A stretch of 64,000 nucleotides of DNA from a virus (lineage: Duplodnaviria > Heunggongvirae > Uroviricota > Caudoviricetes), in the IMG/VR virus record IMGVR_UViG_3300006139_000008; one strand, written 5' to 3'. Under the pieces are notes generated by a model. The model saw only the letters and a list, made by a program, of their open reading frames with translations. It ran no database searches and was not told the origin of the DNA. Below are positions 38,044 to 38,922 of this stretch, piece by piece (the stretch's first letter is position 1; every line of letters begins with the position of its first letter). A program made the position numbers and the translations under genes.

Positions 38044-38922
38044 CTATTTTATATTATGTTCTAAATATTCATCTATTAATATCTGCCCACAACTCCCTCC
38101 TATGTCTCTAGCTGGAGGTATATAATATTCTGTTTTTACATTATTTTTATTAAGTATATCCATTATTTCATTTACTTTTTCGATGGAAGTACATGTAGAT
38201 TCAATAGTACTTTTAATGTTGTATTGAATAAATTTAATACATACATCAGTTTTTCTAAATTCATTAATCAAGAATTGTATATCATCATCTTTATCATTTA
38301 CACCATTAATTAAAGTGTAGTGAATCTCAATATCATTTTTAGTTTCTTCTTTAAAATATCTAATTTTATTTAATGAATCTTTAATTGTGCTTGTTCTAGG
38401 CATCCATTCACGCCTAACTTTATCATTTGTATAATGAAGTGAAAAATGTAATTTAAGTTTTATATTATTTTCTTTAATAGCAATAACAAAATTATCAAAA
38501 CTATTATTTCTATCAATAGGAATAGATGTTGATACCGCAAAGCGGATTTTGTCATATTTGTTATTTAATAATATTATTCCTTTAGTTAAATTTTCTACAT
38601 TTAACAGCGGTTCTCCACAACCCATAAAGGATACTAAAAGAATTTTATTTGAATGTAATTTCAAATCATCATAAATATACTTTACGATTTCAACTATTTC
38701 TCCTGCTAATAAATTTCTTAAAACTACTTCTTCAGAAATATCCGTTATATGGCAAAATTTACATTTCATATTACATGATGTTTGTGTTGGCAAACATATA
38801 ATATTTTTTCCGTCATGTTTATTTATAAATGTTGCTTCTACAACTAAATTATCAATATCCGTAAATAATATGTATTTAATACTATCATCAATACGAGATT
38901 CTATTTTTTTATGAAGTTTCAT
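38044..38922 (-). CDS. RlmN/Cfr-family radical-SAM methyltransferase homologue lacking the N-terminal accessory domain
   Basis: Near-collinear with E. coli RlmN core: NIICLPTQTSCNMKCKFC (vs LCVSSQVGCALECKFC), VSFMGCGEPLLN (vs MGMGEPLLN), FSLHYTNDKVRREWMP (vs ISLHAPNDEIRDEIVP), IHYTLINGVNDKDDD, C-terminal SCGQIL (vs AACGQL). Both catalytic Cys equivalents present. 292 aa against 384. Confidence 0.8.
   Translation of the reverse strand: MKLHKKIESRIDDSIKYILFTDIDNLVVEATFINKHDGKNIICLPTQTSCNMKCKFCHITDISEEVVLRNLLAGEIVEIVKYIYDDLKLHSNKILLVSFMGCGEPLLNVENLTKGIILLNNKYDKIRFAVSTSIPIDRNNSFDNFVIAIKENNIKLKLHFSLHYTNDKVRREWMPRTSTIKDSLNKIRYFKEETKNDIEIHYTLINGVNDKDDDIQFLINEFRKTDVCIKFIQYNIKSTIESTCTSIEKVNEIMDILNKNNVKTEYYIPPARDIGGSCGQILIDEYLEHNIK

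What the first reader, a model, noticed from the sequence alone, without database searches (positions are those of the whole stretch)
38044..38922. Minimal RlmN/Cfr-family radical-SAM methyltransferase without the N-terminal domain, embedded in the phage nucleotide-metabolism operon
The 292-aa protein is block-by-block collinear with the E. coli RlmN catalytic core. It keeps the Cys-x3-Cys-x2-Cys cluster (CNMKCKFC), the Cys just before it that corresponds to the methyl-carrying Cys118 (ICLPTQTSC), the MGMGEPLLN-type motif (FMGCGEPLLN), and the C-terminal CGQ Cys355 equivalent (SCGQIL). It lacks the first roughly 100 residues that RlmN and Cfr use for substrate engagement. I do not know of a phage-borne, N-terminally minimal RlmN/Cfr-like enzyme as a characterised entity. 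Candidate roles are tRNA A37 or rRNA A2503 C-methylation to retune translation or evade tRNA or ribosome-targeting defences, or methylation of a nucleotide substrate, given the flanking dNTP-metabolism genes.
Basis: partly seen in the sequence, partly recalled or inferred. Interest (0 to 1): 0.8.

Follow-up and report, generated by a model that had tools for sequence, protein, structure and literature searches.

The report
RlmN-like methylase wired to nucleotide metabolism
This phage gene encodes a stripped-down relative of the RNA-methylating enzymes RlmN and Cfr that has lost its RNA-gripping parts; in relatives it is fused or adjacent to enzymes that make and use dUMP, so it probably methylates a free DNA building block rather than RNA, which would be a new job for this enzyme class.

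Summary
Window 38044-38922 (minus strand) encodes a 292-aa radical-SAM protein whose nearest characterised relatives are RlmN and Cfr. It keeps the CxxxCxxC cluster, both mechanistic cysteines (C43 = RlmN C118, C278 = C355) and the SAM motif. It lacks the N-terminal HhH2 RNA-docking domain (about 78 residues, not about 100). It scores far below the curated RlmN and Cfr cut-offs.

It is not a phage oddity. It belongs to a large uncharacterised clade of about 290-330 aa found in phages, Patescibacteria chromosomes and gut Bacillota. Canonical RNA-contact residues are replaced throughout the clade: RlmN R206, R344 and N307, Cfr R249, and the backbone NH that reads adenine N1, which is now Pro. 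A shared new pocket appears instead (K157, H159, E199, K230, Y267, P270).

Clade members are repeatedly fused to dCMP deaminase in both domain orders, to dUTPase, and to a nucleoside-deoxyribosyltransferase-like domain. They also abut thymidylate-kinase-like, dUTPase and dCMP-deaminase genes.

Best reading, by inference only: a class-A radical-SAM C-methylase acting on a free pyrimidine deoxynucleotide, probably dUMP. RNA methylation is the main rival. No characterised precedent was found. Biochemistry is needed.

The parts
38044..38922 (-). 292-aa class-A (RlmN/Cfr-type) radical-SAM methylase homologue without the HhH2 N-terminal domain
   Evidence: ORF. Pfam Radical_SAM 5e-14. TIGR00048 7e-41 but 140 bits against a cut-off of 290. 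PHROG 27142 5e-24. AF2 pLDDT 93.9. Foldseek top hit RlmN 3rfa_B, TM 0.82.
38794..38796 (-). Codon of Cys43, equivalent of RlmN Cys118 / Cfr Cys105 (the cysteine that resolves the covalent intermediate)
   Evidence: Aligned to C118. Invariant in 45/45 family members.
38752..38775 (-). CNMKCKFC: the CxxxCxxC ligands (C50, C54, C57) of the radical-SAM [4Fe-4S] cluster
   Evidence: Sequence. Invariant.
38599..38625 (-). MGCGEPLLN (residues 100-108), the SAM-binding GGE-type motif shared with RlmN MGMGEPLLN
38113..38127 (-). YYIPP (residues 266-270), a clade-specific motif that replaces the Cfr R327-F330 / RlmN R344-R347 segment. In Cfr this segment binds the target ribose and reads adenine N1/N6 through backbone atoms.
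   Evidence: Residue mapping. Cfr contacts from PMC13001441.
38089..38091 (-). Codon of Cys278, equivalent of RlmN Cys355 / Cfr Cys338 (the methyl-carrying cysteine)
   Evidence: Invariant.
33667..34227 (-). Context: guanylate-kinase-like P-loop kinase (putative phage dNMP kinase) in the same strand block. A homologue abuts the radical-SAM gene in L029.
   Evidence: Pfam Guanylate_kin 5e-13 and PHROG 1815 3e-38. L029 homologue 6 bp upstream of the radical-SAM gene.
27952..28386 (-). Context: dUTPase (a dUMP supplier) at the end of the same block
   Evidence: Pfam dUTPase 2.7e-12. Matches the dUTPase part of the triple fusion P0300.
29014..31871 (-). Context: NrdG activase (29014-29646) and NrdD anaerobic ribonucleotide reductase (29655-31871)
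35426..36142 (-). Context: 238-aa PHROG-6721 protein, possibly a very divergent ThyX-fold protein lacking the RHR motif (weak evidence)
36206..37495 (-). Context: ATP-dependent DNA ligase
   Evidence: PHROG 114 7e-92.
43880..49259 (-). Context: RecD2-like helicase (43880-46153) and DnaE-type polymerase (46143-49259) upstream in the same block. The synteny is shared with related gut phage contigs and with Clostridium phage c-st.

Best explanation
The gene encodes a class-A radical-SAM C-methylase, meaning it uses the RlmN/Cfr type of chemistry.

Proposed mechanism (inferred from the conserved residues): one SAM methylates Cys278. A second SAM is cleaved at the C50/C54/C57 [4Fe-4S] cluster to give a 5'-deoxyadenosyl radical. 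This radical abstracts H from methyl-Cys278. The resulting thiomethylene radical adds to an sp2 carbon of a nucleobase. Cys43 then resolves the covalent adduct.

The protein belongs to a distinct, uncharacterised clade. Members have shed the HhH2 RNA-docking domain and the RNA-contacting arginines, and have rebuilt the substrate cleft as K157/H159/E199/K230/Y267/P270.

I infer that the substrate is no longer rRNA or tRNA but a free pyrimidine deoxynucleotide. dUMP is the best candidate. The product would be dTMP or an isomeric or related methyl-dNMP, handed on to a neighbouring dNMP kinase. In the phage this would serve its own DNA precursor supply or base modification under the anaerobic conditions implied by NrdD/NrdG.

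Shown: homology, fold, conserved catalytic residues, loss of RNA-binding features, and the gene fusions and neighbourhoods. Inferred: the substrate class, the identity of the nucleotide, and the position methylated.
For: 1. Chemistry is conserved. C43, C50, C54, C57, M100, G101, G103-E104-P105, N108 and C278-G279 are invariant in 45 family members. The fold matches RlmN (TM 0.82).

2. RNA-binding apparatus is lost. The HhH2 domain is absent. In Cfr that domain anchors the RNA backbone (PMC13001441). Residues invariant in 8 canonical RlmN/Cfr sequences are replaced: RlmN R206 (which binds tRNA G29; PMC5130265) becomes I/V; Cfr R249 becomes N/D; RlmN R274 becomes A/S/P; RlmN N307 becomes K; RlmN R344 becomes Y. 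Cfr F330, whose backbone NH and O read adenine N1/N6, is an invariant Pro, which has no NH.

3. The window subfamily and the fused subfamily share the same new pocket residues. They group together away from RlmN/Cfr (bootstrap 135-177 of 200). The window protein is 32% identical to both fused types (135-148 bits) against 26% (77 bits) to E. coli RlmN.

4. Rosetta-stone fusions.
- Radical-SAM domain followed by ComEB-type dCMP deaminase: at least 40 clusters at 90% identity, some with 85-489 member sequences.
- The reverse order, deaminase then radical-SAM domain: P0184, on a phage-like contig.
- Radical-SAM domain, a degenerate deaminase (HAT, PDYEC), then dUTPase: P0299/P0300.
- Radical-SAM domain then a Nuc_deoxyrib_tr domain: P0204.
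The fused deaminase matches ComEB at 1e-32 and TadA only at 1e-6.

5. Neighbourhoods of window-type genes in phages.
- dCMP deaminase 9 bp upstream or overlapping the start (L014, L036).
- Thymidylate-kinase-like PHROG 2107 40 bp downstream (L006).
- dUTPase 167 bp downstream (L018).
- Guanylate-kinase-like gene 6 bp upstream (L029).
- Ten of 23 dNTP-metabolism genes lie within 1 kb, against 17% of all ORFs (P = 0.003).
- In a Lachnospiraceae contig the fusion overlaps a Tmk-like gene.
- In two Patescibacteria genomes the gene lies upstream of NrdD/NrdG.

6. In the window, the gene sits with dUTPase, a dNMP-kinase-like gene and NrdDG. No ThyA, bona fide ThyX, dCMP deaminase or Tmk was detected in the 64 kb. 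There are no tRNA genes.
Against: No experiment supports the substrate assignment.

The strongest evidence (the fusions) comes from relatives only 32% identical to the window protein.

Thirteen of 25 non-redundant phage neighbourhoods contain no recognisable nucleotide-metabolism gene.

Classical ThyA or ThyX co-occurs within 10 kb in about 5 of 25 groups (L001, the L002 group (its member L013), L024, L029, L036). This argues against a simple replacement of thymidylate synthase.

Class-A methylases use two SAM per methyl group and are slow in vitro (general knowledge). That is awkward for bulk dTMP supply.

Phages cluster many early genes with nucleotide genes, so adjacency alone is weak.

The ancestral base is adenine, and a purine nucleotide substrate cannot be excluded.

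Overall charge of the core does not distinguish the clade from RlmN/Cfr.

In Patescibacteria the gene could simply be a minimal RlmN. I could not check whether those genomes have a canonical rlmN.
Confidence: 0.45

Rival explanations
1. It is still an RNA adenine C-methyltransferase, installing m2A or m8A on tRNA A37 or 23S rRNA A2503 or another RNA site. It would work without the HhH2 domain, perhaps with relaxed or different RNA specificity, and would retune translation or evade tRNA- or ribosome-directed defences.
For: The closest characterised relatives are RlmN and Cfr. Both catalytic cysteines and the beta' extension that cradles the target nucleotide are kept. In Patescibacteria the gene is chromosomal, near the CCA-adding enzyme and aminoacyl-tRNA synthetase genes, although on the opposite strand. 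This would fit a minimal housekeeping RlmN. A different short branch (Xanthomonas phage JGB6) sits inside a tRNA gene cluster.
Against: Canonical RlmN needs extended RNA recognition; a 17-mer anticodon stem-loop is not a substrate (PMC5130265). The domain and residues that provide this recognition are gone: HhH2, R206, R274, R344, N307 and Cfr R249. The backbone NH that reads adenine N1 in Cfr is replaced by an invariant Pro. Fusion partners are mononucleotide enzymes, not RNA-binding or TadA-type domains. There are no tRNA genes in the window, and few in related loci. The JGB6 branch groups with canonical enzymes, not with the window clade.
Confidence: 0.25
2. It methylates a base carbon in polymeric DNA after replication, giving for example C-methyl-adenine or 5-methyl-pyrimidine in phage DNA, as an anti-restriction modification.
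For: The gene lies in the replication module, between the helicase/DnaE genes and the ligase gene, with conserved synteny in related phages. Radical-SAM enzymes are known participants in post-replicative thymidine hypermodification pathways (PMC8989533, listed).
Against: There is no DNA-binding domain; the HhH2 fold that could have served is the part that was lost. Peripheral arginines are lost rather than gained. The fusion partners (dCMP deaminase, dUTPase, deoxyribosyltransferase-like) and the Tmk-like neighbours all act on monomers. The clade is also chromosomal in bacteria, in housekeeping contexts.
Confidence: 0.12
3. It acts on a free purine nucleotide or another small molecule, keeping adenine as the base (for example dAMP or ATP to a 2- or 8-methyl derivative). 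The product would be a specialised nucleotide such as a signal, an inhibitor or a natural-product precursor, rather than a DNA precursor.
For: The ancestral specificity is adenine C2/C8. The slow, SAM-expensive chemistry suits low-flux products (general knowledge). In one Lachnospiraceae contig the fusion sits among AMP-binding, carrier-protein and ABC-transporter genes, together with Tmk, ThyA-like and HMUDK-type genes, which looks like a nucleotide-derived metabolite cluster.
Against: All fusion and adjacency partners with a defined base preference are pyrimidine enzymes: dCMP deaminase, dUTPase, Tmk-like, NT5C. The adenine-reading backbone NH is lost.
Confidence: 0.1

Closest known systems
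RlmN (23S rRNA A2503 / tRNA A37 C2-methyltransferase; TIGR00048; PDB 3RFA, 5HR7)
   Same: Same radical-SAM core with the beta'1-3 extension (Foldseek E 5e-18, TM 0.82). Same CxxxCxxC motif, MGxGEP motif, and the C118/C355 cysteine pair that defines the methyl-Cys ping-pong mechanism. About 26% identity over the core.
   Different: No HhH2 N-terminal domain and a shorter C-terminal tail. HMM score of 140 bits against a cut-off of 290. R206, R274, N307, R344 and T116 are replaced. Different genomic wiring: nucleotide metabolism and fusions to dCMP deaminase and dUTPase.
Cfr (23S rRNA A2503 C8-methyltransferase; NF000424 / TIGR04432; PDB 9P0P and the 2026 cryo-EM complex)
   Same: Same fold and the same cysteine pair (C105/C338 equivalents). 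Sequence E about 1e-22; Foldseek E 1.5e-11.
   Different: Scores 76-81 bits against cut-offs of 468-550. Lacks the N-terminal domain that anchors H91/H92. Lacks R184, R249, K250, Y252, H286, N288 and R327. Has Pro at the F330 position that reads adenine N1/N6. It is therefore not predicted to be a PhLOPSA resistance determinant.
PHROG 27142 ('Fe-S-cluster redox domain-containing', e.g. Pseudomonas phage 201phi2-1 gp434)
   Same: About 300-aa phage proteins that are RlmN-like and lack the N-terminal domain. Full-length profile match at E 5e-24. 56 phage records hold relatives.
   Different: Only 22-35% identical. 201phi2-1 gp434 lacks the C118-equivalent cysteine (it has Tyr) and falls outside the window clade in the tree. 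The family is uncharacterised, and the name carries no tested function.
Thymidylate synthases ThyA and ThyX (functional analogy only)
   Same: The genomic company is the same: dCMP deaminase, dUTPase and thymidylate kinase. The predicted reaction type is C-methylation of a pyrimidine dNMP.
   Different: No homology. The radical-SAM/methyl-Cys chemistry would be folate-independent. The activity is untested. ThyA or ThyX co-occurs with the gene in some loci.

Membership tests
RlmN (TIGR00048 / NF008396 equivalogs) | Whole-protein HMM score at or above the curated cut-off | tested here: not met
   TIGR00048 140.3 bits against 290. NF008396 80.4 bits against 633.
RlmN (TIGR00048 / NF008396 equivalogs) | Radical-SAM CxxxCxxC cluster plus the Cys118 and Cys355 equivalents | tested here: met
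   C50/C54/C57, C43 and C278 are aligned, and invariant.
RlmN (TIGR00048 / NF008396 equivalogs) | N-terminal HhH2 accessory domain used for RNA docking | tested here: not met
   The protein starts opposite E. coli residue ~79. The model begins directly with the beta' strands.
RlmN (TIGR00048 / NF008396 equivalogs) | Conserved RNA-contact residues of the core (R206, R274, N307, R344) | tested here: not met
   Replaced by I126, D197 (A/S/P in the family), K230 and Y267. The role of R206 is from PMC5130265.
RlmN (TIGR00048 / NF008396 equivalogs) | Forms m2A at 23S A2503 / tRNA A37 | not testable with these tools
   Needs expression in a delta-rlmN strain and nucleoside LC-MS.
Cfr (NF000424, TIGR04432, NF011024) | Whole-protein HMM score at or above the curated cut-off | tested here: not met
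   80.6 bits against 530; 76.4 against 550; 75.9 against 468.
Cfr (NF000424, TIGR04432, NF011024) | rRNA-binding residues seen in the Cfr-87-mer complex (R184, R185, R249, K250, Y252, H286, N288, R327, F330 backbone) | tested here: not met
   Only the R185 position keeps Arg (R127). The others are I, N, D, E, C, K, Y and P (contacts from PMC13001441).
Cfr (NF000424, TIGR04432, NF011024) | Confers PhLOPSA resistance through m8A2503 | not testable with these tools
   Needs MIC testing and rRNA mass spectrometry.
Class A radical-SAM methylases (mechanistic class defined by RlmN/Cfr) | Radical-SAM partial TIM barrel with the beta' extension, and two conserved cysteines flanking the active site for the methyl-Cys / resolving-Cys chemistry | tested here: met
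   Fold TM 0.82 to 3rfa_B. The ten best PDB matches are all RlmN, followed by Cfr. Both cysteines are invariant.
Class A radical-SAM methylases (mechanistic class defined by RlmN/Cfr) | Two-SAM ping-pong methylation of an sp2 carbon, with one methyl hydrogen derived from solvent | not testable with these tools
   Needs d3-SAM labelling.
PHROG 27142 | Full-length profile match | tested here: met
   E 4.9e-24, residues 5-281 on profile positions 7-298 of 300. PHROGs has no curated cut-off.
Proposed short 'nucleotide-linked' RlmN-like clade (window type, deaminase-fused type, Tunturi_5 type) | No HhH2 domain; signature K157, H159, E199, K230, Y267, P270; EIHYTLI-GVND and Y-PPG-x(4)-SCG motifs | tested here: met
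   The signature is present in the window protein, in 45/45 window-type sequences and in 21-25 of 25 fused-type sequences. The clade is recovered in 135-177 of 200 bootstraps.
Proposed short 'nucleotide-linked' RlmN-like clade (window type, deaminase-fused type, Tunturi_5 type) | Fusion or tight linkage to pyrimidine dNMP enzymes | tested here: inconclusive
   For the clade the feature is met. For the window gene itself the partners are 3.8-9.7 kb away in the same block (dNMP-kinase-like, NrdDG, dUTPase), not adjacent.

The most novel reading that the evidence does not exclude
The clade is a third, folate-independent kind of thymidylate synthase. It would be a radical-SAM enzyme that methylates C5 of dUMP through a methyl-cysteine/5'-deoxyadenosyl-radical mechanism. 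dUMP would be supplied by the fused or adjacent dCMP deaminase or dUTPase, and the product drained by the adjacent thymidylate-kinase-like enzyme. It would be used by anaerobe-infecting phages, by Patescibacteria with minimal metabolism, and by gut Bacillota. A close variant of this reading: the enzyme makes a non-canonical C-methyl pyrimidine dNMP for phage DNA.
Probability: 0.2. Interest if true: 0.95.

Novelty: new variant of a known kind. Interest (0 to 1): 0.72.

Why it matters
RlmN and Cfr are the only characterised class-A radical-SAM methylases, and both act on folded RNA.

Suppose a large, widespread sister clade has been retooled for free deoxynucleotides. That would extend this chemistry to small-molecule metabolism. 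It would reveal an unrecognised step in pyrimidine dNTP supply or DNA base modification in phages, in candidate-phyla-radiation bacteria and in abundant gut Firmicutes. It might add a folate-independent route to thymidylate, a reaction known so far from only two enzyme families (ThyA and ThyX).

There is also a practical point. These genes are currently auto-annotated as '23S rRNA (adenine2503-C2)-methyltransferase', or even 'Cfr'. This mislabels them as RNA-modification or antibiotic-resistance genes in metagenome surveys.

The prediction can be tested directly with one recombinant protein and a panel of nucleotides.

Tried and rejected
1. BLAST-level clustering of 1,371 neighbouring ORFs from 46 loci found no universal partner gene; the most widespread cluster was in 7 loci. 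So there is no fixed operon partner, and in particular no small HhH-type protein that could replace the lost domain in trans.

2. Net charge and pI of the core did not separate the clade from RlmN/Cfr: E. coli RlmN -2, Cfr -4, window protein -2. Inconclusive.

3. The first bootstrap run was invalid because the distance formula produced NaN values. It was redone. An earlier Biopython version timed out.

4. Test of whether the fused deaminase is TadA-type, which would have supported tRNA as substrate. Rejected: ComEB 1e-32 against TadA 1e-6.

5. PHROG-6721 neighbour as ThyX.
- Thin-profile hhalign did not support it (probability 2.6%).
- There was no Pfam or PDB sequence hit.
- The AF2 model was poor (pLDDT 57).
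- Foldseek nevertheless returned only ThyX (E 6.5e-3, TM 0.33).
I keep this as a weak lead only.

6. Megablast of the 22-kb module against the phage collection found no match.

7. A search of the plasmid collection for the fusion found only stand-alone dCMP deaminases. A Subdoligranulum hit turned out to be a Cfr/RlmN-like gene that does have an N-terminal region.

8. The two unknown genes between the radical-SAM gene and NrdD in Patescibacteria gave no informative Pfam or PDB match.

9. Promoter and terminator scans around the gene found nothing above chance. There is no clear Shine-Dalgarno sequence before the ATG.

10. Eight literature searches found no characterised phage or short RlmN-like enzyme and no description of the deaminase fusion. 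Schwalm et al. 2016 was not available.

11. Rejected as an explanation: NrdG-type activase. The window has its own NrdG at 29014-29646, and the protein's best matches are RlmN/Cfr, not activases.
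Full report
**1. What is there**

Window 38044-38922 holds a 292-aa ORF on the minus strand. The plus-strand reading is full of stops.
- Pfam sees only the generic Radical_SAM domain (5e-14).
- NCBIfam ranks RlmN first (TIGR00048, E 7e-41) and several RlmN and Cfr models next (E 1e-18 to 1e-25).
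- Every one of these scores is far below its curated cut-off: 140 bits against 290, and 76-81 bits against 468-550.
- The next-best radical-SAM families (MoaA, PFL activase and others) score around 1e-6, so no other subfamily competes.
- Solved structures give the same ranking: RlmN 6fz6 at 1e-17, E. coli RlmN at 2e-13, Cfr at 5e-11.

An AlphaFold2 model built on 45 homologues is confident (pLDDT 93.9, pTM 0.91). Its ten best PDB matches are all RlmN chains (E 5e-18, TM 0.82), followed by Cfr.

**2. Catalytic residues and what is missing**

HMMER and MAFFT alignments place C43 opposite RlmN C118. This is the residue mutated to Ala in 4pl1 and 5hr6. C278 lies opposite C355. Both cysteines are invariant in 45 family members, as are C50/C54/C57 and the MGxGEP motif.

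The protein begins opposite E. coli RlmN residue ~79. The model starts directly with three beta strands followed by the first strand of the barrel. According to the 2026 Cfr-rRNA cryo-EM preprint, the enzyme consists of an HhH2 N-terminal domain (four short helices, with a hinge at residues 59-65), a beta'1-3 extension, and the radical-SAM core. The N-terminal domain anchors the RNA backbone at the H90/H91/H92 junction (PMC13001441).

So the window protein lacks exactly the HhH2 domain and keeps the beta' extension. The deletion is ~78 residues relative to RlmN and ~62 relative to Cfr (C43 aligns to Cfr C105), not ~100.

**3. How common it is**

The word-indexed protein search returned 274 relatives. 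The best 120 are almost all 290-300 aa.

An exhaustive profile search of 1.84 billion representatives found 549 clusters at E below 1e-30. The best ~130 clusters at 50% identity are short forms whose match starts at residue 1-10. Proteins with a 60-70-residue N-terminal extension, the full-length RlmN type, only appear at around 1e-41.

PHROGs already holds a related family, 27142, labelled 'Fe-S-cluster redox domain-containing'. Fifty-six phage records encode relatives, all below 35% identity and with inconsistent names.

Eight literature searches found no characterised phage-borne or short RlmN-like enzyme.

**4. Where the window gene sits**

The gene lies in a long minus-strand block. In order of transcription: DnaE, RecD2-like helicase, several small ORFs, the radical-SAM gene, a 146-aa predicted membrane ORF, ATP-dependent ligase, a PHROG-6721 protein, an SH3 protein, an HPr-like protein, a guanylate-kinase-like protein, an SPFH protein, NrdD, NrdG, dUTPase. 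An integrase follows.

The same order recurs in related human-gut phage contigs: RecJ-like, DnaE, helicase, the radical-SAM gene, ligase, HPr-like, ThyX or NT5C, NrdD.

By DnaE similarity the phage is a relative of the large temperate Clostridia phages c-st (51%) and phiCD211 (44%). No tRNA genes occur in the window.

**5. The decisive comparative evidence: fusions**

Among the clade's representatives, several are longer than ~300 aa because they carry extra domains.
- P0184: dCMP-deaminase domain followed by the radical-SAM domain.
- P0196: radical-SAM domain followed by a dCMP-deaminase domain.
- P0204: radical-SAM domain followed by a nucleoside 2-deoxyribosyltransferase-like domain. Its linker is homologous to the linker in P0196.

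The deaminase domain is of the ComEB/dCMP type (TIGR02571, 1e-32). The TadA model reaches only 1e-6. This removes a tRNA-editing interpretation.

A search with P0196 showed that this fusion is abundant. At least 40 clusters at 90% identity have lengths of 484-517 aa, and several hold 85-489 member sequences.

That search also revealed a 670-aa triple fusion that adds a dUTPase domain (P0299/P0300). In the triple fusion the deaminase catalytic motifs are degenerate: HAE has become HAT and PCxxC has become PDYEC. This looks as if dUTPase has taken over the supply of the same product, dUMP.

The fusions occur on ordinary bacterial chromosome. Some are next to Der GTPase, S15, PNPase and TyrRS. 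Others follow a LysR regulator near Tex, PheRS and RelA.

In one Lachnospiraceae contig the fusion overlaps a thymidylate-kinase-like gene. The surrounding cluster holds a second Tmk, a ThyA-like gene, an HMUDK-helical gene, adenylation and carrier proteins, and ABC transporters.

P0184 and P0204 are on phage-like contigs.

**6. Neighbourhoods of unfused, window-type genes**

I collected 36 IMG/VR loci, added the contigs, and reduced the set to 25 non-redundant phage groups of the window type.

BLAST-level clustering shows very diverse contexts and no universal partner. The recurring close neighbours are pyrimidine-dNMP enzymes:

| Neighbour | Position relative to the radical-SAM gene |
|---|---|
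| dCMP deaminase | 9 bp upstream (L014); overlapping the start (L036); within 2 kb (L045, L013) |
| P-loop protein, PHROG 2107 'thymidylate kinase' | 40 bp downstream (L006); within ~1 kb in L004, L005, L014 and L036; 4.8-7.4 kb in L015 and L001 (five non-redundant groups in all) |
| dUTPase | 167 bp downstream (L018 group) |
| Guanylate-kinase-like gene | 6 bp upstream (L029) |
| NT5C | 823 bp downstream (L029) |
| ThyA | 837 bp downstream (L024/L047) |

Ten of the 23 recognisable dNTP-metabolism genes lie within 1 kb of the radical-SAM gene. Only 17% of all ORFs in the same loci do (binomial P = 0.003).

Thirteen of the 25 groups show no such gene within 10 kb.

**7. Bacterial homes of the window type**

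A scan of one genome per GTDB species found the window type (37-43% identity) in 11 MAGs. Most are Patescibacteria: Parcubacteria, Nomurabacteria, Saccharibacteria and Paceibacterota.

The contexts are truly chromosomal: MreB, Pol III delta', CCA-adding enzyme and an aminoacyl-tRNA synthetase.

In two genomes the arrangement is conserved: the radical-SAM gene, two unknown genes, NrdD, NrdG.

**8. The substrate cleft has been rebuilt**

I aligned 82 sequences: 8 canonical RlmN/Cfr, 45 window-type, 25 fused or ~330-aa type, and 4 distant phage proteins. I then mapped the contacts reported for the Cfr-rRNA complex and for RlmN-tRNA (R206 binding G29). Residues invariant in the canonical set are replaced in both short subfamilies:

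| Canonical residue | Role in the canonical enzyme | In the short clade |
|---|---|---|
| RlmN R206 / Cfr R184 | Contacts RNA bases | I or V |
| Cfr R249 | Contacts G2581 | N or D |
| RlmN R274 / Cfr K250 | Contacts G2582 and the U-turn | A, S or P |
| RlmN N307 / Cfr N288 | Target phosphate | Lys (K230) |
| RlmN R344 / Cfr R327 | Target ribose | Tyr (Y267) |
| Cfr F330 | Backbone NH and O read adenine N1/N6 | Invariant Pro (P270), which has no NH |
| Cfr N208, T210, Y252 | Hold the 3' neighbour U2504 | K157, H159, E199 |

The window subfamily and the deaminase-fused subfamily share this new set: K157, H159, E199, K230, Y267 and P270. This argues for a common substrate, different from that of RlmN/Cfr.

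The new Lys/Lys/His cluster, combined with the loss of peripheral arginines, is what one would expect on going from a polymer to a mononucleotide with a terminal phosphate. That reading is inference.

A neighbour-joining tree groups the window type, the fused types and Tunturi_5 gp170 together, apart from canonical RlmN/Cfr and from the Vibrio/JGB6 short branch (135-177 of 200 bootstraps).

Pairwise, the window protein is 32% identical to both fused types (135-148 bits) and 26% identical to E. coli RlmN (77 bits).

**9. Interpretation**

Shown:
- A conserved class-A methylase catalytic apparatus.
- Loss of the RNA-docking domain and of the RNA contacts.
- A shared remodelled pocket.
- Repeated, independent fusion and tight linkage to enzymes whose substrates or products are dUMP, dCMP or dTMP.

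Inferred:
- The substrate is a free pyrimidine deoxynucleotide.
- dUMP is the best candidate, for three reasons. Both fusion partners with defined chemistry produce it. The deaminase decays when dUTPase is added. Tmk-like kinases sit immediately downstream.
- The product could be dTMP, which would make this a folate-independent thymidylate synthase, or another methyl-pyrimidine dNMP.

Arguments against the simple thymidylate-synthase version:
- ThyA or ThyX co-occurs in about 5 of 25 groups.
- The window holds a possible divergent ThyX-fold gene 1.9 kb downstream (weak evidence).
- This chemistry has a high SAM cost and low turnover.

The related phage c-st lacks both the radical-SAM gene and any annotated thymidylate synthase in the equivalent module. 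It instead carries uracil permease, deoxyribosyltransferase, thymidine kinase and NT5C. This is compatible with alternative solutions to thymidylate supply, but it is not decisive.

**10. Rivals**

An RNA methylase working without the N-terminal domain remains possible (about 0.25). This applies especially to Patescibacteria, where I could not check for a canonical rlmN.

The Xanthomonas phage JGB6 homologue lies in a tRNA cluster, but it belongs to another branch.

Post-replicative DNA methylation (about 0.12) and a purine or other small-molecule substrate (about 0.10) are not excluded.

**11. Verdict**

The protein is a member of the RlmN/Cfr mechanistic class but of neither family.

The protein represents a large, mis-annotated, uncharacterised clade. 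I rate it a new variant of a known kind. There is a roughly one-in-five chance that it is a new kind of thymidylate synthase.

Noticed in passing
window 35426-36142 (-): A 238-aa PHROG-6721 protein of unknown function with at least 8000 homologues and no Pfam or PDB sequence hit. A low-confidence AF2 model (pLDDT 57) matched only ThyX structures in the PDB (all top 50; best E 6.5e-3, TM 0.33). By eye, the segment SEHRKF...APLYFWKEFDQYK...STSTIHKL resembles the ThyX core with the RHR motif changed to QYK. It may be a very divergent ThyX-fold enzyme. A thin-profile hhalign did not support this.
   Followed up: partly
P0299 / P0300 (locus L048:1228-3240): A 670-aa triple fusion of radical-SAM methylase, dCMP-deaminase-like and dUTPase domains on a bacterial contig downstream of a LysR regulator. 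The deaminase catalytic motifs are degenerate (HAT instead of HAE, PDYEC instead of PCxxC), suggesting an inactive domain retained as a scaffold or nucleotide-binding module.
   Followed up: partly
L049:5040-16172 (Lachnospiraceae MAG GCA_948850955.1): The radical-SAM/deaminase fusion sits in a cluster with two thymidylate-kinase-like genes, a ThyA-like gene, an HMUDK-helical-domain gene, a formyltransferase-like gene, adenylation enzymes, carrier proteins and ABC transporters. It looks like a biosynthetic cluster for a modified nucleotide or a nucleoside-derived metabolite.
   Followed up: no
L008:2578-9048 (Xanthomonas phage JGB6): The JGB6 short RlmN-like gene lies inside a cluster of eight tRNA genes and a tmRNA-like gene. 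This branch (with the Vibrio phages) groups with canonical RlmN/Cfr rather than with the window clade, so short RlmN-like proteins may be functionally heterogeneous. The product names in this record also appear shifted: the radical-SAM gene is labelled 'prohibitin family protein', while a 109-aa ORF is labelled 'radical SAM protein'.
   Followed up: partly
L009:4971-5879 (Pseudomonas phage 201phi2-1 gp434): This jumbo-phage homologue keeps the C355-equivalent cysteine but has Tyr at the C118-equivalent position. The canonical step that resolves the covalent intermediate therefore cannot work in the same way.
   Followed up: no
L061:9980-15962 and L063:9944-15943 (Parcubacteria / Nomurabacteria MAGs): A conserved chromosomal arrangement: the radical-SAM gene, a ~105-aa ORF, a ~323-aa ORF, NrdD, NrdG. 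The two middle genes have no Pfam match and no informative PDB match.
   Followed up: partly
L073 (Clostridium phage c-st, NC_007581.1 44000-92000): The related phage c-st has the same DnaE / RecD-like ... NrdG / NrdD / dUTPase module, without the radical-SAM gene and without an annotated thymidylate synthase. It carries a uracil permease, a nucleoside 2-deoxyribosyltransferase, a thymidine kinase and a 5'-deoxyribonucleotidase. This amounts to a pyrimidine-salvage solution.
   Followed up: partly
window 34228-34473 (-): An 81-aa HPr-like (PTS-HPr fold, weak Pfam match in relatives) protein is conserved in the nucleotide module of related phages (L001, L004-L006). It always sits just upstream of ThyX, NT5C or the guanylate-kinase-like gene.
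   Followed up: no
window 42073-42975 (+), 26272-27492 (-), 32676-33653 (-), 7104-14231 (+): Other features of the window: an FRG-domain protein on the opposite strand, interrupting the minus-strand block; a tyrosine integrase, so the phage is temperate or a prophage; an SPFH/Band-7 protein between the kinase and NrdD; and a 2375-aa ORF.
   Followed up: no
window 38923-39032: There is no recognisable Shine-Dalgarno sequence in the 15 bases before the ATG at 38922, no promoter-like sites above the shuffled background, and no terminator around the gene. The N-terminus nevertheless matches the family consensus (MKLxxKI.S..D.TIKY).
   Followed up: partly
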